IMG/VR virus record: IMGVR_UViG_2529292908_000013
Coordinates: 1-6,223 of that record
Strand: one strand, 5' to 3'
Origin: a virus
Taxonomy: Duplodnaviria > Heunggongvirae > Uroviricota > Caudoviricetes
DNA length: 6,223 nt
Shown: positions 1 to 6,223 of the stretch, piece after piece
How positions within the stretch are numbered: position 1 is the stretch's first letter
How the letters are laid out: the number at the start of each line of letters is the position of its first letter
The notes under the pieces: model-generated
The model's input: the letters and a program-made list of their open reading frames with translations, nothing else
Database searches by the model: none
Told to the model about the DNA's origin: nothing
Program-made: the position numbers and the translations under genes

Positions 1-1101
1 TCAGGCTATATTTCTTGTTATGTTATGCAGCTCAGCTGTAAAAATCAGCTCTCCCTTAGCGAAGGGAGTGCTCCCTCCTGGTTGAGTCATAAAACTTTGT
101 GAGACAGTCGTCCAGCTGTTTGTGTCGCTTTGTACGCCATTCTCTGTAATCGTTGCGCCTTCATGGCTGCCATTTTTCACTTTCCAGGCCAGGCGGTTAT
201 TGGGGGCATCAGCACCGCGGTAAGTGACCGAGGCCATAACGGCCACAACATCACTGTTGCTGTTATCCACCGCACCAAACGTGGCCTGTGCTGCATTCAG
301 GGACGGCGAGAGCATCAGATATCCGGCCTCGCTGTCAGAGGTGTTCAGCCCCGTGACAATATCTTTATTCAGTGAGTTTTTGGCGCTTCCACCGGTAAAT
401 GCCGTTACCGGGCTGTATCTGACCTCAATGCTTCCGAGCAGGGCGGGTTCTGCACTATTATTTCTACCGTATGTCACTGTTCCACAGTACATATCACCCA
501 GCATTAACGTACCGGATGCACCCGATGAAAAAATATTGTCACCACTACCAATACTCACCTGAATTTTGTCAGTCCGGTCATCTGGTACATAAAACGATGT
601 ATTTCCAACTAATGAGCGGTTGCAGTACAGACTGGCTGAGACATAGCCGTTTTCGTTTCGCGTTGCGAAAATTTCATAGTAATAACTGGCTGCTTCATCA
701 GGATACGGGGTTGTAAATGAATAGCCATTAATCCTGATGTGGGATGGCGAAGATGAATATTTCTTTCCCGCACTTAATGTCAGACGAAATCCCAGCTGTA
801 CAGCTGAGGCTTTTAAGTCCGGAAGTGTGCTGTACAGTGTGACATATGAGGATGTCGTGAAAATCAGCCCCGTTCTTTCTACAGTATTTACGGCCTGAGT
901 GCCACGACAGACGGATGTTACAGAACCGGACATATCATTGATAAGCGTGACACCGTTTTCGTTCAGTGCTGAAATAATATTTGTTGAATAATAGTTCTCG
1001 CACAATCCCTCATTCGCCGGAATTTGTCGAAAACTTTCGAGTTTTATAATATTCAAGGTCTGCTTTCCTTTTGTGTCGGTTAATATATTTCTGAATACCA
1101 C
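1..1101 (-). CDS. Hypothetical protein (366 aa by the ORF track), function unknown; candidate accessory (moron) gene or second receptor-binding protein downstream of the tail-fibre assembly gene
   Basis: Uninterrupted 1101-nt ORF, co-directional with the tail operon, with TGA stop at 3..1. The start is uncertain: the ORF opens with GTG at 1101..1099, 11 nt after the tfa stop, with no obvious Shine-Dalgarno. An in-frame TTG at 1056..1054 is preceded by AAGGAAAG and is an alternative start; the first in-frame ATG is codon 57. The protein is Ser/Thr/Gly/Asn/Tyr-rich, with no N-terminal hydrophobic signal, no transmembrane-like stretch, no Walker A motif and 4 Cys. I do not recognise it as any named family. 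G+C hand-counted at 37-45% in three 120-nt samples, versus about 59-62% in the baseplate genes. Confidence 0.65.
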   Translation of the reverse strand: MVFRNILTDTKGKQTLNIIKLESFRQIPANEGLCENYYSTNIISALNENGVTLINDMSGSVTSVCRGTQAVNTVERTGLIFTTSSYVTLYSTLPDLKASAVQLGFRLTLSAGKKYSSSPSHIRINGYSFTTPYPDEAASYYYEIFATRNENGYVSASLYCNRSLVGNTSFYVPDDRTDKIQVSIGSGDNIFSSGASGTLMLGDMYCGTVTYGRNNSAEPALLGSIEVRYSPVTAFTGGSAKNSLNKDIVTGLNTSDSEAGYLMLSPSLNAAQATFGAVDNSNSDVVAVMASVTYRGADAPNNRLAWKVKNGSHEGATITENGVQSDTNSWTTVSQSFMTQPGGSTPFAKGELIFTAELHNITRNIA

Positions 1102-1112
1102 AAAAAGTTAGC

Positions 1113-1631
1113 TCATGGTTTTTGTGGCCATTGAATAAAATCAAAAGACTCCTTATCACTCACATGACTTAAATTCAGAGCCTTCACCTCTTTGATATAC
1201 GCCATCCACTGCATCAGGTGGGCCTTGTCGTCATCACTGATGGTGCCCAGCTCCAGCTCGGTTTTCCAGTCAGATGTGATGTCCTTTGCTTCAGTCAGCA
1301 GATGCTGGCGTTGTTTTTCTGCCAGTTGCGAATAATCAACAGGAACCGGCAGCACTTCGCCGTCTTTGTAATACCAACTGGCTTCAATGCCAAAACCTTC
1401 CGGCAGTTCATCAACTTCCACAATGGTGAAACCTGTCGGATAAAGACGGGACACGTCTTCCGCCATTGAATAAATCACGCCACTTTCAGGGTGAATGCAC
1501 AATTTGTATCTCTTCGTGAATTTGTCCATGGATTCATAAAAATCCTGTCCGTCTTCACTGCGGAAATACTGAATGCCTTCACCATAAGGCATCTCTTTCG
1601 GGTAATAACGCGTGACGTTTCTGAGTTCCAT
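1113..1631 (-). CDS. Phage tail fibre assembly protein (Tfa / Mu U / P2 G-like chaperone), about 172 aa
   Basis: ORF-track ORF 1113..1667; I place the start at ATG 1631..1629 (MELRNVTRYYPKE...) because a canonical AAGGAG (revcomp of 1638..1643) lies 6 nt upstream. The upstream ATG at 1667 would overlap the fibre gene by 22 nt and has no RBS. The C-terminus (...DDDKAHLMQWMAYIKEVKALNLSHVSDKESFDFIQWPQKP) has the acidic/Trp-Pro pattern I recall from lambda Tfa-type chaperones. Position immediately 3' of the fibre gene fits. Confidence 0.8.
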   Translation of the reverse strand: MELRNVTRYYPKEMPYGEGIQYFRSEDGQDFYESMDKFTKRYKLCIHPESGVIYSMAEDVSRLYPTGFTIVEVDELPEGFGIEASWYYKDGEVLPVPVDYSQLAEKQRQHLLTEAKDITSDWKTELELGTISDDDKAHLMQWMAYIKEVKALNLSHVSDKESFDFIQWPQKP

Positions 1632-1645
1632 TATTTTCTCCTTAA

Positions 1646-2449
1646 TTAGCCGGATACCGTGCGCCATCCGCCATTGATATAAATCTGAGTTTGTTTGTAA
1701 TACACGCCGCCGATGTTATCCGCAGAGCTCTTGCCAGTTTCCTGAACGTTAATACCTGACAAAATACAACCTGAAGGCGCGCGAAATACCCAGGAAATTT
1801 CGTTACCACCGGGATTGTGAAACACTTCGCTGGTATACCTGAAATCACGTACTGCACCAGAATCGGTGCTGCTGATAGTGATATCGCTACTGCCATCAAA
1901 CAGCACATTGTTAATCCTGCGGGCCGTCTGAAGCCGGGTTGCCGTTCCGGCGTTGCCGCTGATGTTGTTGATGGTGATATCCGAAGTCAGGGGCATGTTG
2001 TTGACCTTACGCGCTTTTGGCACACCGCTGATGTTATCCAGAAACAATTGTTTATTCGGGATGTCTGCGCCGTTACGGTCTTTTGCCAGTCTGGCGTTTG
2101 CGTTATCCATCGCAATCCTGACCGCTTTTGGTGTAGCCGCTTCTGTTTCTGATTCACTGTTAACAGCACTGTTAAGCCGCACTACGCCTTTTTGCGTCAG
2201 CGATGCATCCGGGACTTTCTGGCCAATAAACGAGGTCAGCGCCTCAACCAGCTGGTTTTGTTTTTCCGGGTCAGGGGTGACGCCAGCCTCTTTAAGGACG
2301 TTAATCACCTCCTGCTGCAAATCACGCGTTGCTGCCTGATGATTATTCATAAATTCAGCAGTAACGATGGTTCCCTCAATTCCCTGAGTCGGGTCACCAT
2401 CATGAAATAACTTATCCGGCGTATTCACCGGGGGCATTAAACTCTGCAT
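1646..2449 (-). CDS. Phage tail fibre protein (267 aa) with a P2 gpH-like conserved collar motif and C-terminus
   Basis: ATG at 2449..2447 preceded by AGGAG (revcomp of 2455..2459) with a 5-nt spacer; TAA stop at 1648..1646. Contains ...DASLTQKGVVRLNSAVNSESETEAATPKAVRIAMDNANARL..., matching the widespread tail-fibre motif I recall from P2 gpH (..SETLAATPKAV..). The C-terminus ...IYINGGWRTVSG resembles the P2 gpH end (..KYINGTWYNVAQV). The 3' half is lower in G+C (about 44% at 1681-1800). Confidence 0.85.
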   Translation of the reverse strand: MQSLMPPVNTPDKLFHDGDPTQGIEGTIVTAEFMNNHQAATRDLQQEVINVLKEAGVTPDPEKQNQLVEALTSFIGQKVPDASLTQKGVVRLNSAVNSESETEAATPKAVRIAMDNANARLAKDRNGADIPNKQLFLDNISGVPKARKVNNMPLTSDITINNISGNAGTATRLQTARRINNVLFDGSSDITISSTDSGAVRDFRYTSEVFHNPGGNEISWVFRAPSGCILSGINVQETGKSSADNIGGVYYKQTQIYINGGWRTVSG

Positions 2450-2495
2450 TATTTCTCCTGTAGTTATTACAAATAAACAACATCAGACCTTTTGT

Positions 2496-3452
2496 TTAAG
2501 GCTCTGTGATAACGGCAAAGTGCAGCCCATTATGGTTAACTACTAATGGGGTACTGCTGTTATTTGCTGTTTGTAAATGTATTTTGTTAATTGTCATCGG
2601 CTCCGTGGTCTGCCTTCCCGACTGCCACTGAACGGTATTAACTGTCAGTGGTTCAATAGTTCGCCGCTCCGACAATAGTTGCATTCTGTTAATCAGCAAT
2701 GGTTCCTGACTCAGGTTTCCCGCCTGAAGCTGCGTATTGTTGATTGTGAGCGGTTTACCTTTCAGTACAGGAATAACTGCAAAATGCATTCCGGCATTAT
2801 TTATCAGCAGAGGCGCATCAGCATGACATACTGACTGAAACTGAATTCTGTTAATTGTCAGTGGTGATACTGGCTCTGGCTGAGATGTGATTTCATAAGT
2901 GAAATAACAGTCTGTAAAAGCTGGTTTAAGGTCTTTAAACGTGTTTTCTAAAATGGATTCACCAAAGGCCGTCAGCGGTTCGCCGGTTGCCGATGCGCCC
3001 GTTCTGAACCGGTAGACAGGTGTTTTTGTCCCGATAACATTGACCTGCCACGCCCAGCGGATTTCTGGTATCAGCAGGCGGTCGCCGCAGCGGTTTATCC
3101 CCACCCGGAATGGTCGCGGCTCCGTAATGGTGATGGTGTAGCCCAGACTGGCGGCAAGGCTTTTGAAGTAAGGGATTGACAGCCCCCCCGTGGCAGCCAT
3201 TTTTACCAGAATGTTCTGACGCCGCTCCTGTTGTGTTGCCCCTTCACGAGGAATAACACCGTACACGCGCTCCCAGTCGGACAGCGTCATCGATGCCTGC
3301 AACGGGGTGATTTGTGTCAGAACGCGCGCCGCTGACGCCTTCACGACTTCCATGACGTCAGCCTCGGCTGTCAGTTCTGCGGAAATATATTTCCCGTTCA
3401 GGTCATAACTGACAGGTGGCAGCATGGCGCGAAATAAATCGACCATATTCAT
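2496..3452 (-). CDS. Baseplate/tail protein of the Mu gp48 / DUF2313 (YmfQ-like) type with an atypical C-terminal extension of seven tandem 17-aa repeats; about 318 aa
   Basis: ORF-track ORF 2496..3488. I place the start at ATG 3452..3450 (MNMVDLFRAMLPP...), 4 nt after the J-like gene's TGA and preceded by GAGGGG; the upstream part of the ORF lies inside the preceding gene. The N-terminal roughly 190 aa resemble gp48/YmfQ-type proteins as I recall them, and the position between the J-like gene and the fibre gene matches Mu/SfV/e14 order. The C-terminal roughly 125 aa are repeats of the form PL(T/L)INxxQ... (see repeat feature). Confidence 0.75.
   Translation of the reverse strand: MNMVDLFRAMLPPVSYDLNGKYISAELTAEADVMEVVKASAARVLTQITPLQASMTLSDWERVYGVIPREGATQQERRQNILVKMAATGGLSIPYFKSLAASLGYTITITEPRPFRVGINRCGDRLLIPEIRWAWQVNVIGTKTPVYRFRTGASATGEPLTAFGESILENTFKDLKPAFTDCYFTYEITSQPEPVSPLTINRIQFQSVCHADAPLLINNAGMHFAVIPVLKGKPLTINNTQLQAGNLSQEPLLINRMQLLSERRTIEPLTVNTVQWQSGRQTTEPMTINKIHLQTANNSSTPLVVNHNGLHFAVITEP
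2499..2879 (-). repeat. In-frame degenerate tandem coding repeats (7 units, 51-nt period, one 60-nt unit) at the 3' end of the gp48-like gene
   Basis: Protein-level repeats start at ORF residues 209, 226, 246, 263, 280, 297 and 314: PLTINRIQFQS.., PLLINNAGMHFAVIPV.., PLTINNTQLQAG.., PLLINRMQLLSE.., PLTVNTVQWQSG.., PMTINKIHLQTA.., PLVVNHNGLHFAVITEP. The corresponding plus-strand cores are a gTTaAttGtcAgtGG-like string recurring at roughly 51-nt spacing between about 2528 and 2850. Confidence 0.75.
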
Positions 3453-3456
3453 AAAA

Positions 3457-4536
3457 TCACCCCTCGCGCGGAAAAGGCTGAATATCAATATTTCCCGGGC
3501 GCAACCATTCCCACGTTGACGCGTTAATAATGGCTTTTACGTTGTCCGCTGGCGTAATGATTCGCCGGTCACTGACACCGGAAATTAATGAAATCTGGGT
3601 TTCCAGTTGTGAAATTATTAATTCCTGCCCCGGCTCCAGCCGGTTCATAAAATCCGTGATAACGTCAGTTATTTGCGGTTTTATCTGCTCAACGGTCAGG
3701 CCGCTGGTTTTTACCCGGACAACGAAATCAACGGCTTTTTTCGTCGGGGCCAGTACCATCGTGTCCTTCGCTGTGACCGGGCGGACTTCCTCAATATGTG
3801 CCAGCACGGCATTAATCAGTTCCTGCGAGGGAAGGTCATTGGCTGACGTAATGGCCACATCAACCGTTCCCAGCCCACGACGCAATGACTCCACATATGC
3901 CGAGGTAACGCCATCCACTTCCAGCGCCCAGCGTTTGTAATCATATTTGTTACCGCCAGCGGGCGGCCTGCGCAGAATATCCAGATAACGCGCCAGCAGG
4001 TCGGCGTCACTTTCCCTGTCCGTTCCGCCGGTCAGGGATTTAATCGTCACCGTGCTGTTGATGCCTTCCGGCGGACTGACCAGCGTTGCCGTCTGCGTTG
4101 TGGATGCGTTCGTATGTGCGCCCGTGGTGGTGCTTTTTGCCGTCACCTCCGCGCTGCCTTCATCACCGATGGTGCAGTCTGCGGTGGTGGCCACGCTGAC
4201 ACCTTCACCACGAATTTCCGCACCGGCTGGCAGCATCTTACCGGGTGTACCGGTAATCACTGCCGGGCCGGATGAGGCCGTTGCTTTTTTACGAAAAACA
4301 TTGCGCGCGCGGCAGTGCAGCTCCAGATATTCAGGGTCTGCCGTGTCAGGAAACACCTGACGGAGTATCCACCCCTGATGCATATAAAGCCCGTCAGCCA
4401 CGCCAGATACGGCATTTGCACGAATGCGGTAATCGCTGTCAGCGCCGGTGTCGATGGTTTCTCCCGGCAGGGCGTTAGCGATATCACGTAGCTGGCGTTC
4501 TGTGTTTTCAGCAACGCCCGGAACTGGAAACGGCAT
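3457..4536 (-). CDS. Baseplate J-like protein (Mu gp47 / P2 gpJ family), 359 aa
   Basis: ATG at 4536..4534 overlaps the upstream gene's TAA by 1 nt (TAATG), with GAGGA about 9 nt upstream. Length and the C-terminal half (...YDYKRWALEVDGVTSAYVESLRRGLGTVDVAITSAN...) fit baseplate J-type wedge proteins as I recall them. Gene order fits. Confidence 0.85.
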   Translation of the reverse strand: MPFPVPGVAENTERQLRDIANALPGETIDTGADSDYRIRANAVSGVADGLYMHQGWILRQVFPDTADPEYLELHCRARNVFRKKATASSGPAVITGTPGKMLPAGAEIRGEGVSVATTADCTIGDEGSAEVTAKSTTTGAHTNASTTQTATLVSPPEGINSTVTIKSLTGGTDRESDADLLARYLDILRRPPAGGNKYDYKRWALEVDGVTSAYVESLRRGLGTVDVAITSANDLPSQELINAVLAHIEEVRPVTAKDTMVLAPTKKAVDFVVRVKTSGLTVEQIKPQITDVITDFMNRLEPGQELIISQLETQISLISGVSDRRIITPADNVKAIINASTWEWLRPGNIDIQPFPREG

Positions 4537-4886
4537 TACATAATCCTCACAGGGTGTTCAAACGTCTGCGGTGTGCCCGCGTTATCCGTGACGGTGATTA
4601 ACAGCAACAACCAGCCGCGCTGGCCCGCTTTCGTGTCAACGGTAATGGATTTTGCCCGCCCGTCATCAAGCAGGGGCTGAAGCGCCTGACTGGCATACTG
4701 CGCCGCCAGCCTGTGAACACGGGAAACGTCTTTTTCCCGCTTCAGTTCGTGCAGGCGTGACCCCAGCGACGCATCCGCCCAGTAACTGCCAAGCGGCGTC
4801 GCCAGTCGCAGATAAACCGCGTTATGAAGTGTATAAATCCGGCGGCGTTCGTAGTCGCCGGTTGCAGGTGAAATCGTCTGGTCCAT
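4536..4886 (-). CDS. Small baseplate protein, Mu gp46-like (P2 gpW / T4 gp25-type position), 116 aa
   Basis: ATG at 4886..4884 and TAA at 4538..4536, translationally coupled to the J-like gene. Size and position between the spike (V-like) and J-like genes are as in Mu-type baseplate modules. The sequence identification itself is weak; the call rests mainly on synteny. Confidence 0.7.
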   Translation of the reverse strand: MDQTISPATGDYERRRIYTLHNAVYLRLATPLGSYWADASLGSRLHELKREKDVSRVHRLAAQYASQALQPLLDDGRAKSITVDTKAGQRGWLLLLITVTDNAGTPQTFEHPVRIM

Positions 4887-4939
4887 GCCGCCAGTCTGGC
4901 AGCATGGACAGGTCAGAATCAGGTGAGGGTGTTCAGCAC

Positions 4940-5593
4940 TTAATTAACCGGCGTGTCAGACATGCCGTGTGGGGTCGGGTGTTTGTGCGTTCCGATTTTA
5001 ATGCCATTAATGGTGACGTCAACGGAGGTAATCACACCACCCACATGGTTGATGTTGCCTTCAAAGGTGGCGGCATATTTCTTGCCCCCACTGATGGCCA
5101 TGCCACCACTGCCGGTGATTTTACCTTCCACTGTCAGCTTATCGCTGGCCGTCAGTAACGGTGTCGTGAATGCGGCGTTCTCCTCTGCCTCAACCTCATA
5201 GCGTTTGCATTTCACCCGGTAAACGTCACATTCGGTTTCAACAATCCGCCCGCGCTTCAGTACGATTTTCGCGCCTTCATCGGTATACAGGGCCACCTCG
5301 CCGGGTTTCAGTTCCGTCAGGCGATATGCGCCGTGCTCTGTGGCCACGATGACGGTATGGGAGGTATTACCGTTCAGCGGAACGGCAATACCCATAGAGC
5401 CGGGCGGCGGGGATGTGGTGAGGCCGTAATGCTGAAAATACTCCGCACCGTCCAGCTGCTCGCCTGCCAGCCCGTTCAGCTGGAGAAGCTGTACTTTGGT
5501 CGAACTGTCCACCGTACCGGTCACCACCCTGAATGCCTGGCGAACGGTGGCCAGTGCCTGCTGTATGCGCTGATTAACCTTGTCCCACATCAT
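4940..5593 (-). CDS. Baseplate spike / assembly protein V-like (Mu gp45 / P2 gpV family), 216-217 aa
   Basis: Tandem ATG ATG at 5593..5588; GGGAGAA lies 2 nt before the first ATG and 5 nt before the second, so 5590 may be the true start. TAA stop at 4942..4940. N-terminal OB-like region followed by a Gly-rich C-terminus ending ...INGIKIGTHKHPTPHGMSDTPVN, which resembles the P2 gpV C-terminal apex (..HTHKHPGDSGGTTG..) as I recall it. Confidence 0.85.
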   Translation of the reverse strand: MMWDKVNQRIQQALATVRQAFRVVTGTVDSSTKVQLLQLNGLAGEQLDGAEYFQHYGLTTSPPPGSMGIAVPLNGNTSHTVIVATEHGAYRLTELKPGEVALYTDEGAKIVLKRGRIVETECDVYRVKCKRYEVEAEENAAFTTPLLTASDKLTVEGKITGSGGMAISGGKKYAATFEGNINHVGGVITSVDVTINGIKIGTHKHPTPHGMSDTPVN

Positions 5594-5991
5594 TTCTCCC
5601 AGACCTTAACAATGGCGACCTCTTTTTCTTTTTGCCCCTGCGGTGATGGCGTTTCTTCTCACGCGGGAAGGCGTCAGGTATCCACACGCCGTCCTCCTTA
5701 AAGCGAAGCCGGGTTGTCTGCCCGTTCCGGCCTCCGCTGAACTCACGCCCCATCAGGAAAAAGATGGCATCAATGCCGTGGAGTTCGCTGACAATCCGCA
5801 CACGCTGGCCGGGCTGCCACAGGACACCGTCCGCCGTGCGATGGCCTGCAACCAGTGCAACGATATCCAGCCCCGACAGACGGGCATCACTCATCATTTT
5901 TTTTGCGCGCCAGTTCACCTGCTCCATGTTACTGGTGTCGCCCTGGGTGATTATCTGCGGGCGGTAATAATCCACGGTGGGGTCGGTGGCC
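5574..5991 (-). pseudogene. 3' fragment of a baseplate hub gene (Mu gp44/P, P2 gpD-like 'late control D' family), interrupted at its 5' side by IS186
   Basis: The reading frame is open from the IS186 junction (5991) to a stop at 5576..5574 and overlaps the V-like gene start by 20 nt. The ORF track begins it at GTG 5975, but the frame stays open upstream into the IS inverted repeat until a TAG at 6002..6000. This is about 138 codons where hub proteins of this family are about 380 aa as I recall. The gene immediately upstream of the spike gene in Mu-type modules is the hub. Confidence 0.6.
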
Positions 5992-6014
5992 CATAAGCGC
6001 TAACTTAAGGGTTG
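5992..6014 (+). repeat. IS186 terminal inverted repeat (IRL), 23 bp
   Basis: CATAAGCGCTAACTTAAGGGTTG lies directly at the point where the phage hub-gene frame is broken. The exact outermost base (5991 versus 5992) cannot be fixed without the other end of the element. Confidence 0.8.
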
Positions 6015-6046
6015 TGGTATTACGCCTGATATGATTTAACGTGCCG

Positions 6047-6223
6047 ATGAATTACTCTCACGATAACTGGTCAGCAATTCTGGCCCATATTGGTAAGCCC
6101 GAAGAACTGGATACTTCGGCACGTAATGCCGGGGCTCTAACCCGCCGCCGCGAAATTCGTGATGCTGCAACTCTGCTACGTCTGGGGCTGGCTTACGGCC
6201 CCGGGGGGATTGTCATTACGTGA
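6047..6223 (+). CDS. insL: IS186 transposase InsL, N-terminal portion; reading frame terminates at 6221..6223, apparently through a +1 frameshift
   Basis: ATG at 6047 (the ORF track starts at an upstream in-frame GTG at 6041). The translation matches the InsL N-terminus through ...LAYGPGG, then reads IVIT-stop. The canonical protein as I recall it continues MSLREVTAW..., which is what GTCATTACGTGA would encode in the -1 frame. This implies one extra T at about 6210/6211. Confidence 0.8.
   Translation: MNYSHDNWSAILAHIGKPEELDTSARNAGALTRRREIRDAATLLRLGLAYGPGGIVIT

What the first reader, a model, noticed from the sequence alone, without database searches (positions are those of the whole stretch)
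1..2000. Mosaic junction: G+C falls from about 60% (baseplate) to about 40-45% across the distal fibre and terminal ORF
Hand counts of 120-nt samples give 62% (5401-5520), 59% (3001-3120), 53% (1201-1320, tfa), 44% (1681-1800, fibre 3' half) and 37-45% across 1..1101. The conserved baseplate core is well above typical enterobacterial G+C (about 51%), while the receptor-proximal end and the downstream ORF are well below it. This is the signature of a horizontally exchanged distal module grafted onto a conserved tail core, and the breakpoint appears to lie inside the fibre gene. The tfa sample is intermediate, so the left block may itself be composite.
Basis: seen in the sequence. Interest (0 to 1): 0.45.

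Follow-up and report, generated by a model that had tools for sequence, protein, structure and literature searches.

The report
Mosaic host-recognition end of Mu-like prophage
The drop in G+C is real, but it marks the ordinary patchwork tail-fibre end of a Mu-like E. coli prophage; the two most deviant patches look like two halves of a rare, uncharacterised accessory tail module (a repeat "adaptor" fused to a baseplate protein, plus a lectin-like protein).

Summary
The G+C step exists: 45.9% left and 56.3% right of position ~2966 (permutation p=0.003). It lies in ymfQ/gp48, not in the fibre gene, which shows no internal step (p=0.83). The claim of 37-45% across 1..1101 is wrong for 121-360 (54-57%).

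Comparison with relatives shows real mosaicism, with at least five junctions:
- A 434-nt low-GC insertion (2459-2892) extends baseplate wedge protein YmfQ/Gp48 by seven ~17-aa PLxINxxQLQ repeats.
- The fibre is lineage-specific up to codon ~146. From ~2006 down to 1168 (fibre tip plus most of tfa) it is 97-100% identical to a different, true Mu-type prophage. So a breakpoint inside the fibre exists, but composition does not reveal it.
- The terminal ORF (1-1056, 351 aa) is a cassette 98% identical to that Mu-type prophage.

In 11 other loci, homologues of this ORF start 1-32 nt after an ORF ending in the same repeats. The repeats are carried by Gp48, by the Stf N-terminal domain, or by a main-fibre-like N-terminus. 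AlphaFold predicts two lectin-like beta-sandwiches that resemble virion structural proteins.

Best reading: ordinary tail-fibre mosaicism, plus a previously undescribed two-part accessory receptor-binding module. The docking between the two parts is inferred, not shown.

The parts
1..1056 (-). Terminal ORF 'hyp352' (351 aa, TTG start at 1056 with an AAGGA ribosome-binding site). It is the last gene before the prophage right end. It is a lectin-like two-domain protein of phrog_8291 and the proposed distal accessory receptor-binding subunit.
   Evidence: GC 46.5%, GC3 0.456. It has no Pfam, NCBIfam, PADLOC or PDB sequence hit, and matches phrog_8291 of unknown function. Positions 28-1072 are 98.3% identical to Mu-type prophages L003/L004, where the gene sits directly after YmfQ-long. 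AF2 gives pLDDT 88.5 and an all-beta model. Foldseek finds full-length matches (TM up to 0.65) to ~350-aa phage proteins, including a 'virion structural protein' of phage AchV4. Three of 25 family members hit Laminin_G_3.
1073..1167 (-). Junction patch: the intergenic spacer plus the last 18 codons of tfa. It resembles neither comparison lineage closely.
   Evidence: It lies outside both L003 homology tracts (28-1072 and 1168-2006). Positions 1117-1236 are only 80% identical to L002. GC is 33.7%, and GC3 is 0.235 in the last 17 codons.
1113..1667 (-). Tail fibre assembly protein (tfa, Caudo_TAP).
   Evidence: Pfam PF02413 at 69 bits. It is 90% aa identical to the L003 tfa. GC is 45.6%, with GC2 0.32 and GC3 0.50.
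1168..2006 (-). Exchanged distal module: fibre codons ~148-267 plus tfa codons 1-~167. It is shared with a different Mu-type lineage.
   Evidence: It is 96.8% identical to L003/L004, and 100% over 1588-1887. Against same-lineage L002 it is 75-79% over 1657-1896. Positions 1333-1844 are 83% identical to the tail fibre genes of lambdoid phage Rac-SA53.
1646..2449 (-). Tail fibre (267 aa). It has a Mu S-like N-terminal and constant part (aa 79-148, including SETEAATPKAV at aa ~99-109), a conserved linker (aa 148-183) and a swapped tip (aa 184-267).
   Evidence: Pfam Phage_fiber_2 at aa 83-123. PDB 5yvq/8ju3 (Mu S, residues 109-178) match aa 79-148, and 9cuy_c ('short tail fiber', 494-554) matches aa 207-267. 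The three-way DNA alignment places the junction at codon ~147.
2459..2892 (-). A 434-nt insertion relative to same-lineage prophages. It is fused in frame to ymfQ and encodes seven ~17-aa PLxINxxQLQ repeats ending in ...PLVVNHNGLHFAVITEP. This is the proposed docking adaptor for hyp352.
   Evidence: In L002 it is absent and replaced by 3 nt, where YmfQ ends ...FTYEVEE*. It is found in only 7 of 5426 complete E. coli genomes. GC is 44%, with GC3 0.43. The same seven-repeat architecture occurs in L003 and L016 YmfQ-long at ~50% aa identity. TRF finds no DNA tandem array; only diverged 74-80% direct repeats are present.
2496..3488 (-). The YmfQ/Gp48 baseplate wedge protein with its C-terminal adaptor extension. 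The ORF is 330 aa; the likely start is the ATG at 3452, which gives 318 aa.
   Evidence: Pfam Phage_Mu_Gp48 at aa 21-199. It matches PDB 9ki1 Mu gp48. Mu gp48 is wedge protein BW3 and carries the fibre-docking loop (PMC11915804). PGAP annotates this ORF as a pseudogene.
2893..5991 (-). Conserved Mu-like baseplate core: YmfQ core, Baseplate_J (3457-4536), GP46 (4536-4886), Gp45/V spike (4940-5593) and the 3' third of the gp44-like hub gene (5574-5991).
   Evidence: Pfam hits are all above the gathering score. It is 96.7% identical to L002, evenly along its length. GC is 53-58% and GC3 is 0.58-0.67.
5992..6223 (+). The left end of an IS186/IS421 (IS4-family) element, inserted into the gp44-like hub gene.
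   Evidence: The terminal sequence CATAAGCGCTAACTTAAGGGTTG is visible. It is 99.2% identical to annotated IS421/IS186B copies in about 2200 genomes. The seven genomes with this prophage have an intact hub gene, and their matches stop at 5991.

Best explanation
The window is the host-recognition end of a Mu-like E. coli prophage. It was built by several recombination events on a conserved ~57% G+C structural backbone.

Shown:
- The backbone (2893-5991) is collinear with, and ~97% identical to, same-lineage prophages.
- The fibre tip plus most of tfa (1168-2006) came from the pool used by true Mu-type prophages. The crossover lies in a tract (fibre aa 148-183) that all three compared lineages conserve.
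- Two blocks are absent from same-lineage relatives and carry the strongest compositional deviation. They are a 434-nt in-frame extension of the wedge protein YmfQ/Gp48 and the 351-aa terminal ORF.

Inferred:
- These two blocks are the two halves of one accessory receptor-binding module.
- The PLxINxxQLQ repeat extension is a portable docking adaptor displayed at the periphery of each baseplate wedge.
- The terminal ORF is a soluble two-domain lectin-like protein that binds the adaptor non-covalently. It would give the virion a second, probably carbohydrate-directed, adhesin beside the six trimeric fibres.

The G+C drop is therefore partly a family-wide property of fibre and tfa genes. The rest is the signature of these two imported, lower-G+C blocks.
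For: Mosaic structure:
- BLAST tracts against L002, L003 and L004, sliding identity, the junction sequences and the three-way alignment all agree.
- The fibre aligns to two different solved proteins.
- Among deposited phages, only fibre and tfa pieces match: Rac-SA53 at 83%, and P2-like, 186 and Mu at 71-84%.

Composition:
- There is a single significant step, at 2966.
- GC3 is 0.43 for the extension and 0.46 for the terminal ORF, against 0.62 for the core (Fisher p=4e-5 and 2e-7).

Link between adaptor and hyp352:
- In 11 other loci from at least 5 different prophage backbones, a hyp352 homologue starts 1-32 nt after an ORF whose C-terminus is the same repeat module.
- The repeat module sits on three unrelated anchors: Gp48 (L003, L004, L013, L014, L016), Stf-N PF08400 (L007, L009, L012, L015, L017, L018) and a main-fibre-like N-terminus (L011).
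- The reciprocal test also holds. Two adaptor proteins found only through the adaptor sequence (P0031, P0032) are each followed by a hyp352 homologue.
- Both families are very rare and restricted to the same hosts: 27 clusters in one case, and 8 representatives out of 1.84 billion in the other.

Evidence that hyp352 is a virion protein:
- The AF2 model has pLDDT 88.5.
- Foldseek against BFVD gives TM 0.60-0.65 to ~350-aa phage proteins, including an AchV4 'virion structural protein'. AchV4 tail-module proteins of that size were detected in virions by LC-MS/MS (PMC7996906).
- There are lectin, CBM and BoNT-Hc fold hits and Laminin_G_3 hits.
- Mu gp48 is the peripheral wedge protein to which fibres dock.
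- The ORF has its own ribosome-binding site, lies on the same strand as the tail genes, and has no promoter-like site between it and tfa.
Against: - No physical interaction was tested.
- AF2 on the adaptor alone is uninformative (pLDDT 45), and no multimer prediction was available.
- In this window, uniquely, the adaptor and hyp352 are not adjacent: fibre and tfa lie between them.
- The adaptor's C-terminal motif does not co-vary tightly with hyp352 sequence. L011 and L017 adaptors end in VLQFAVLSAA, yet their hyp352 is 90-96% identical to the window's.
- hyp352 shows no conserved-N/variable-C gradient of the kind typical of many receptor-binding proteins.
- No fused 'Rosetta-stone' form exists among homologues; all are 334-387 aa.
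- One lambdoid locus (L005) has only a 64-aa ORF with a single degenerate repeat.
- The fold match to the AchV4 protein is at 14% identity, and I could not map the UniProt entry to a specific MS-detected gene.
- The co-resident Mu-type copy is no closer to the window-type copy than other copies are (97-98%), so the immediate donor is not identified.
- In the window's own genome, IS186 disrupts the hub gene, so this copy is probably not producing virions.
Confidence: 0.6

Rival explanations
1. This is plain tail-fibre mosaicism only. The terminal ORF is an unrelated cargo gene ('moron': lysogenic conversion, exclusion or defence) sitting at the prophage end, where Mu carries com-mom. The YmfQ extension is an unrelated insertion or a decaying gene end, as PGAP's pseudogene call implies.
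For: The ORF is the last gene before the prophage end. It has low G+C and no tail-protein Pfam or NCBIfam match. PGAP flags YmfQ as incomplete. In this window the two blocks are 1.4 kb apart.
Against: The adjacency of adaptor and hyp352 holds in 11 other loci on three kinds of anchor protein, and reciprocally. The YmfQ ORF is intact, and the seven-repeat architecture is conserved at ~50% aa identity in two other lineages. There is no PADLOC hit, and no signal peptide or TM-like N-terminus is visible in the sequence. The full-length fold matches are to phage tail-module and virion proteins. There is no promoter-like site upstream.
Confidence: 0.2
2. The G+C drop is not a sign of horizontal origin. 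It reflects amino-acid composition and gene-specific constraints of fibre-type proteins, together with ordinary window-to-window fluctuation.
For: tfa has GC2 of 0.32 but GC3 of 0.50. The demonstrably exchanged fibre tip has GC3 of 0.57, which is not different from the core (p=0.37). Fibre and tfa are equally low in two other lineages. No further sub-steps are significant at alpha 0.01.
Against: GC3, which is largely free of amino-acid constraint, is 0.43-0.46 in the two inserted blocks against 0.62-0.65 in the backbone (p<=4e-5; z -5.5 and -6.4). Both blocks are shown to be insertions or replacements relative to same-lineage prophages.
Confidence: 0.1
3. hyp352 is an assembly factor rather than an adhesin. 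It would be a chaperone or capping protein needed to fold or stabilise the repeat-bearing proteins, analogous to T4 gp38 or to tail-fibre 'chaperone caps', and may or may not remain on the virion.
For: The gene always follows the repeat-bearing ORF, which is the position tfa-type chaperones occupy after fibres. The adaptor alone is not predicted to fold. In several loci no dedicated tfa follows the adaptor-hyp352 pair (L007, L009, L012, L015).
Against: It consists of 350 aa in two lectin-like beta-sandwiches and has no similarity to Caudo_TAP or DUF4376 chaperones. The family has diversified to 40% identity, as adhesins do. Its fold relatives include a phage protein annotated as a virion structural protein.
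Confidence: 0.1

Closest known systems
Tail-fibre gene mosaicism among P2, Mu, P1, lambda and e14-type phages (Haggard-Ljungquist et al. 1992; Sandmeier et al. 1992-94; cited from my own knowledge). A recent example of a shared host-recognition module is PMC10579305.
   Same: A conserved N-terminal/constant fibre part with the SxTxAATPKAV (Phage_fiber_2) block is joined to an exchangeable distal tip and its cognate tfa. Pieces are shared with lambdoid (Rac-SA53), P2-like/186 and Mu phages. The crossover lies in a conserved tract.
   Different: There is no invertible G/C/P segment here. No gix-like site, no inverted repeats and no alternative S'/U' genes are present in the window.
Bacteriophage Mu baseplate periphery: gp48 (BW3) docking trimeric fibre gp49 with chaperone gp50 (PDB 9ki1; PMC11915804).
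   Same: The gene order gp45-gp46-gp47-gp48-fibre-tfa is the same, and the Pfam families match. YmfQ aligns to Mu gp48, and fibre aa 79-148 aligns to Mu S.
   Different: This YmfQ carries a ~130-aa C-terminal repeat extension that Mu gp48 (180 aa) lacks. The fibre is half as long (267 versus 504 aa). An extra 351-aa lectin-like gene replaces gin/com/mom at the end. Baseplate DNA is not alignable to Mu-type prophages.
Branched or two-component receptor-binding systems in which one tail protein carries a docking site for a second, separately encoded adhesin. Examples are T2/T6-type gp38 on the gp37 tip, G7C gp66-gp63.1 and CBA120 TSP complexes (from my own knowledge).
   Same: The proposed logic is the same: an anchor protein with a short docking module, plus a separately encoded binding subunit, together exchangeable as a cassette.
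   Different: There is no sequence or fold relation to those proteins. The adaptor is a PLxINxxQLQ repeat not described anywhere I could search. It is found fused directly to a baseplate wedge protein. The interaction is untested.
~350-aa tail-module proteins of siphoviruses AchV4, JS26, Kokobel1, JC01 and others. These are the best BFVD fold matches; AchV4 'virion structural proteins' were found by LC-MS/MS (PMC7996906).
   Same: There is full-length structural similarity (TM 0.60-0.65, E 1e-12 to 1e-14) and a similar size. The genes are located at the distal end of tail modules, and these phages often have several paralogues.
   Different: Sequence identity is only 12-16%. The host phages are unrelated siphoviruses. 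I did not check whether they use a comparable adaptor.

Membership tests
Mu-like contractile-tail baseplate module (Gp44/Gp45/GP46/Baseplate_J/Gp48) | Pfam families PF06890, PF07409, PF04865 and PF10076, plus the NMB1110-like/GpP hub domains, above the gathering score and in the canonical order on one strand. | tested here: met
   82.6, 68.9, 227.5, 104.4 and 112.5 bits, each above its cut-off. The order is 5975->2496 on the minus strand. YmfQ hits PDB 9ki1 gp48.
Mu-like contractile-tail baseplate module (Gp44/Gp45/GP46/Baseplate_J/Gp48) | Belongs to a transposable (Mu-type) phage: transposase A/B genes and Mu-type ends. | not tested
   The 7 matching genomes show Mu-like head genes (gpT, DUF935, gpG-like) upstream. 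Transposase genes and ends lie outside the window and were not examined. The comparison lineage L003 does end in the canonical Mu right-end sequence and carries com-mom.
Mu S / P2 H-type tail fibre | Phage_fiber_2 repeat (SxTxAATPKAV) and similarity to the Mu S constant region. | tested here: met
   PF03406 at 67.9 bits, aa 83-123. PDB 5yvq/8ju3 match aa 79-148 with E 6e-25 to 4e-26.
Caudo_TAP tail fibre assembly protein | A PF02413 match above the cut-off, with the gene immediately downstream of the fibre. | tested here: met
   69.1 bits against a cut-off of 22.1. phrog_136 matches at E 9e-54. The gene overlaps the fibre stop.
Invertible fibre cassette (Mu G, P1 C, e14 P segments) | gix/cix/pix crossover sites in inverted orientation at the Sc/Sv junction. 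| tested here: not met
   There is no match to gixL with up to 3 mismatches. No inverted repeat longer than 19 nt is present in the window.
Invertible fibre cassette (Mu G, P1 C, e14 P segments) | A second, oppositely oriented Sv'/U' gene pair and a Gin/Pin-type invertase. | tested here: not met
   All genes from 1 to 5991 are on one strand. No opposite-strand fibre, tfa or recombinase ORF was found. In L001 the prophage ends ~125 nt beyond window position 1.
Concanavalin A-like lectin/glucanase (LamG-type) fold, for the terminal ORF | A sequence-profile match to a ConA-like family. | tested here: inconclusive
   The window protein has no Pfam hit at E<=1. Three of 25 family members hit PF13385 Laminin_G_3, best E 1.6e-4.
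Concanavalin A-like lectin/glucanase (LamG-type) fold, for the terminal ORF | A beta-sandwich jelly-roll fold superposable on lectins or CBMs. | tested here: inconclusive
   The AF2 model is confident (pLDDT 88.5). Foldseek PDB hits to TtX122, legume lectins, BoNT Hc and CBM51 have probability ~1 but cover a single domain only (TM 0.2-0.38). Carbohydrate binding cannot be tested here.
PHROG 8291 (unknown function) | A full-length profile match. | tested here: met
   E 1e-238, residues 1-348 of the 349 profile positions.
IS186/IS421 (IS4 family) | The terminal inverted repeat and near-identity to annotated copies. | tested here: met
   The left end CATAAGCGCTAACTTAAGGGTTG lies at 5992. It is 99.2% identical to IS421/IS186B-annotated copies. 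Only the first 232 nt are in the window.
Two-component (adaptor + adhesin) receptor-binding module | A physical complex between the anchor protein and the separately encoded binding subunit on the virion. | not testable with these tools
   Only genomic association is available: 11 other loci and a reciprocal search. AF2 on the adaptor alone gives pLDDT 45.

The most novel reading that the evidence does not exclude
The PLxINxxQLQ repeat block ending in ...GLHFAV(I/V)T is a portable plug-in docking adaptor. It lets one family of lectin-like adhesins (phrog_8291) be mounted on any tail anchor: lambda-type Stf N-termini, main-fibre-like N-termini or, as here, directly on the baseplate wedge protein Gp48. 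A Mu-like myovirus would then carry six fibre-independent, wedge-mounted adhesins, and the pair would move between siphovirus and myovirus prophages as a host-range cassette.
Probability: 0.4. Interest if true: 0.6.

Novelty: new variant of a known kind. Interest (0 to 1): 0.4.

Why it matters
The G+C mosaic itself is textbook phage biology and adds little.

The work does show that composition alone mislocates the junctions. The only demonstrable intragenic fibre crossover is compositionally silent. The compositional signal instead points to two blocks that annotation pipelines dismiss, one as a 'pseudogene' and one as a 'hypothetical protein'.

If those blocks are an adaptor and a lectin-like adhesin, they define a small, transferable host-range module. 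It would work on both long-tailed and contractile-tailed prophages of pathogenic E. coli (ETEC, EAEC and STEC strains carry it). It would also be a ready-made scaffold for engineering receptor specificity of phages or tailocins, by fusing a ~60-130-aa adaptor to an existing tail protein.

A practical consequence is a correction to a systematic PGAP mis-annotation of long YmfQ proteins.

Tried and rejected
- Tandem Repeats Finder found no DNA array in the extension. The repeat finder shows only diverged 74-80% copies, so the repeats are ancient at the DNA level and not a recent expansion.
- The word-indexed protein search with the extension alone found nothing. The full HMMER scan was needed.
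- A genome-contig scan with the hyp352 alignment returned only one locus, in E. albertii. The species-representative set is too sparse for this rare family.
- tblastn of hyp352 against 50,697 phage records gave no match. It is so far known only from prophages.
- NCBIfam and PADLOC gave no hits. A defence-gene reading is not supported.
- AF2 of the adaptor with an 8-sequence alignment gave pLDDT 45 and is unusable, so no fold search was done on it.
- The idea of a gix site or invertible segment at the fibre junction was rejected.
- The idea that the co-resident Mu-type prophage is the immediate donor was not supported. All 7 carrier genomes also hold that prophage, but the within-genome copies are 97-98% identical, no closer than copies from other genomes. 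The co-occurrence may reflect clonal background.
- I expected an N-conserved/C-variable profile in hyp352 and did not see one.
- A finer segmentation of the left block was not significant at alpha 0.01. The best sub-split, at 455, has p=0.09 over 1-2966 and p=0.024 within the ORF.

Full report
WHAT THE WINDOW IS

All long ORFs from 5991 down to 1 lie on the minus strand. With their Pfam hits, they are:
- the 3' third of a gp44-like hub gene (5574-5991);
- Gp45/V spike (4940-5593);
- GP46 (4536-4886);
- Baseplate_J (3457-4536);
- Gp48/YmfQ (2496-3488);
- a 267-aa tail fibre with a Phage_fiber_2 repeat (1646-2449);
- a Caudo_TAP assembly protein (1113-1667);
- a terminal ORF with no Pfam hit (1-1101 as listed).

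For the terminal ORF, the conserved family start is the TTG at 1056, with an AAGGA ribosome-binding site 8 nt upstream.

Positions 5992-6223 are the left end of an IS186/IS421 element that cuts the hub gene.

Megablast against 5426 complete E. coli genomes finds 1-5991 at 99.6-99.8% in only seven genomes. There it is the right-hand end of a prophage with Mu-like head and tail genes. No deposited phage genome matches at that level.

CHECKING THE OBSERVATION

A likelihood change-point scan gives one significant step, after position 2966. The support interval is 2939-2988, with 45.9% to the left and 56.3% to the right, LLR 33.6 and permutation p=0.003. That position is in ymfQ. At 2006, inside the fibre, the LLR is only 14.3.

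Within the fibre gene taken alone there is no step: LLR 1.1, p=0.83. Its two halves are 49.5% and 50.1%.

The statement '37-45% across 1..1101' fails for 121-360, which is 54-57%. The ORF is 46.1% overall and is itself heterogeneous: 1-455 is 52% and the rest is 42% (p=0.024).

I compared each block with 19 other structural genes of the same prophage, taken from locus L001. Their GC is 0.568 +/- 0.026 and their GC3 is 0.645 +/- 0.034. All four left-hand units are low. The z-scores for GC and GC3 are:
- terminal ORF: -4.0 and -5.5;
- tfa: -4.4 and -4.2;
- fibre: -2.8 and -3.2;
- YmfQ extension: -4.8 and -6.4.

So the drop is real and not chance. It is not a single step in the fibre, and in tfa much of it is at codon position 2 (GC2 0.32).

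WHERE THE REAL JUNCTIONS ARE

I used two comparators:
- L002 (strain C5), a prophage of the same lineage.
- L003/L004, a different Mu-type lineage. It ends in the canonical Mu right end and carries com-mom, and its baseplate DNA does not align with the window.

Against L002:
- 2893-5991 is 96.7% identical, evenly along its length.
- 2459-2892 is absent. L002 YmfQ ends ...FTYEVEE* and abuts the fibre start, whereas the window continues ...FTYEITSQPEPVSPLTIN... for 130 more codons.
- 1117-2458 is 90.7% identical overall. It is 96-100% in the fibre 5' half, 75-79% at 1657-1896 (the fibre tip) and 80% at 1117-1236.
- 1-1112 is absent. It is replaced in L002 by a 474-aa Stf-N-type second fibre plus a DUF4376 chaperone.

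Against L003:
- 28-1072 is 98.3% identical.
- 1168-2006 is 96.8% identical, with 1588-1887 at 100%.

The three-way alignment puts the start of L003 homology at fibre codon ~147. It is followed by a tract (aa 148-183) that is conserved in all three lineages. That tract is the natural substrate for homologous exchange.

The same division shows against solved structures. Fibre aa 79-148 match Mu S residues 109-178. Fibre aa 207-267 match the C-terminus of an unrelated 'short tail fiber'.

Among deposited phages, only fibre and tfa pieces match: 1333-1844 at 83% to lambdoid Rac-SA53, and 2034-2196 at 71-84% to P2-like phages, 186 and Mu.

G+C does not reveal it. Lower G+C of fibre and tfa is also seen in L002 and L003, so it is a family trait.

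There is no sign of an invertible segment: no gix-like site and no inverted repeats.

THE TWO MOST DEVIANT BLOCKS BELONG TOGETHER

The 434-nt insertion encodes seven ~17-aa repeats (PLTINRIQFQS..., PLLINNAGMHFAVIPVLKGK, ..., PLVVNHNGLHFAVITEP*) fused in frame to YmfQ.

The terminal ORF matches phrog_8291 (unknown function) end to end. It has only 27 clusters of homologues at 40-97% identity, from E. coli and Raoultella.

In L003/L004 the gene order is J, then YmfQ-long (324 aa, with the same seven-repeat architecture at ~50% identity in the repeats), then hyp352 23 nt downstream, then fibre, then tfa.

I then looked at divergent homologues. In every other locus examined, the gene starts 1-32 nt after an ORF whose C-terminus is this repeat block. 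The N-terminal anchor of that ORF differs:
- Gp48/YmfQ in L013, L014 and L016;
- lambda Stf N-terminal domain (PF08400) plus coiled coil in L007, L009, L012 and L015;
- an N-terminus resembling that locus's own main tail fibre, in E. albertii L011.

One lambdoid locus (L005) has only a 64-aa ORF with a single degenerate repeat.

The reciprocal test also holds. A full HMMER scan of 1.84 billion representative proteins with the extension alone finds just 8 proteins at E<=1e-3. Seven of these are short repeat-bearing tail proteins of the same kinds. The two whose loci I fetched (P0031, P0032) are each followed, 24-30 nt downstream, by a hyp352 homologue of 50% and 96% identity.

The window is the only case in which the two parts are separated, here by fibre and tfa. 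I cannot explain this.

WHAT THE TERMINAL ORF LOOKS LIKE

AlphaFold2 on the 25-sequence family alignment gives a confident all-beta model with pLDDT 88.5 and pTM 0.86.

Foldseek against the PDB gives single-domain matches to a CBM-like domain (TtX122), legume lectins, botulinum toxin Hc and CBM51. Three family members hit Pfam Laminin_G_3.

Foldseek against BFVD gives full-length matches (TM 0.60-0.65, E down to 6e-14). The targets are ~350-aa proteins of siphoviruses AchV4, JS26, Kokobel1, JC01 and others, and the top one is annotated 'virion structural protein'. The AchV4 paper reports tail-module proteins of 36-38 kDa detected in virions by LC-MS/MS (PMC7996906). I could not map the UniProt entry to a particular gene.

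There is no PADLOC or NCBIfam hit.

MECHANISM PROPOSED

In Mu, gp48 is wedge protein BW3, with one copy per wedge. It sits at the baseplate periphery and carries the loop on which the trimeric fibre docks (PMC11915804).

I infer that a C-terminal repeat arm on Gp48 is displayed at that periphery, and that its end docks one lectin-like hyp352 molecule. This would give six accessory adhesins besides the six fibres.

On Stf-N carriers the same adaptor replaces the distal shaft and tip of a side fibre, and hyp352 supplies the binding domain in trans.

The shown steps are the insertions, their boundaries, the gene association and the predicted fold. The inferred steps are the docking, the stoichiometry and carbohydrate binding.

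AF2 of the adaptor alone is uninformative (pLDDT 45).

ORIGIN OF THE BLOCKS

All seven genomes with the window-type prophage also carry the L003-type Mu prophage, which only 23 of 5426 genomes have. However, the two copies inside one genome are 97-98% identical, no closer than copies from other genomes. The association may therefore be clonal, and the immediate donor is unidentified.

The adaptor has no DNA match outside the seven carriers.

VERDICT

The G+C observation is partly confirmed, and the mosaic interpretation is partly supported. As a phenomenon it is already well known for tail-fibre regions.

The added value is the precise junction map, and the recognition of a rare adaptor-plus-lectin-like module. 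This module has not been described in the literature I could search.

My confidence that the region is a multi-junction mosaic is ~0.9. My confidence that the two blocks form a docking pair acting as an accessory receptor-binding device is ~0.5.

In the window's own genome the prophage is probably defective, because IS186 interrupts the hub gene.

Noticed in passing
window 5992-6223 (and 5574-5991): An IS186/IS421 left end is inserted into the gp44-like baseplate hub gene, next to a G-rich target (GGGGTCGGTGGCC). None of 5426 complete E. coli genomes has this junction. 239 window bases align to 238 bases of other IS copies, and the transposase ORF stops after 60 codons at 6221-6223. This suggests a 1-nt indel/frameshift or a read error.
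   Followed up: partly
window 2496-3488; L001:17889-18452; L016:8444-9028: NCBI PGAP annotates the YmfQ+repeat-extension gene as a pseudogene ('missing C-terminus') in two prophage lineages, although the ORF is intact (318-330 aa) and the extension is conserved. This is probably a systematic mis-annotation.
   Followed up: yes
L001:13483-15001 (NZ_AP041814.1): In strain JNE21-009 the Mu-like prophage's right end lies ~125 nt after the stop of a 'DNA circularization protein' gene. That gene belongs to another, oppositely oriented prophage with an HK97-type head and a contractile tail. The Mu-like element appears to be inserted inside another prophage's tail module.
   Followed up: no
window 1-1056 versus 2459-2892: This is the only locus seen in which the hyp352 gene is not immediately downstream of its repeat-bearing partner; fibre and tfa lie between them. 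The hyp352 copy is 98% identical to the Mu-type prophage copy, while the adaptor is only ~50% aa identical to that prophage's adaptor. The two halves therefore have different histories.
   Followed up: partly
window 1073-1236: The 3' end of tfa and the spacer match neither comparison lineage well (80% to L002, 87% to L003). They are very AT-rich (33.7% GC at 1073-1167; GC3 0.235 in the last 17 codons). This is a small patch from a third source.
   Followed up: no
window 1-1101: The mechanically listed 366-aa ORF (GTG at 1101) almost certainly starts at the TTG at 1056, giving 351 aa with a conserved MNII... start and an AAGGA ribosome-binding site. The ORF is compositionally two-part: 1-455 is 52% GC and 456-1056 is 42% (p=0.024). 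Its last 9 codons (1-27) differ from the L003-type copy.
   Followed up: partly
L003:7249-7587, L004:7249-7587, L019:8704-9042: Mu-type prophages that carry YmfQ-long and hyp352 also retain a truncated 'prophage tail fiber N-terminal domain' pseudogene between tfa and com-mom. This looks like a relic of a second-fibre slot like the one occupied in L002.
   Followed up: no
NZ_OZ547097.1 / NZ_OZ547049.1 (249-kb records): In two assemblies the window-type prophage sits on a separate 249-kb record rather than on the ~5.16-Mb chromosome record. The collection counts these records among plasmids. I did not check whether this is a large plasmid or an assembly fragment.
   Followed up: no
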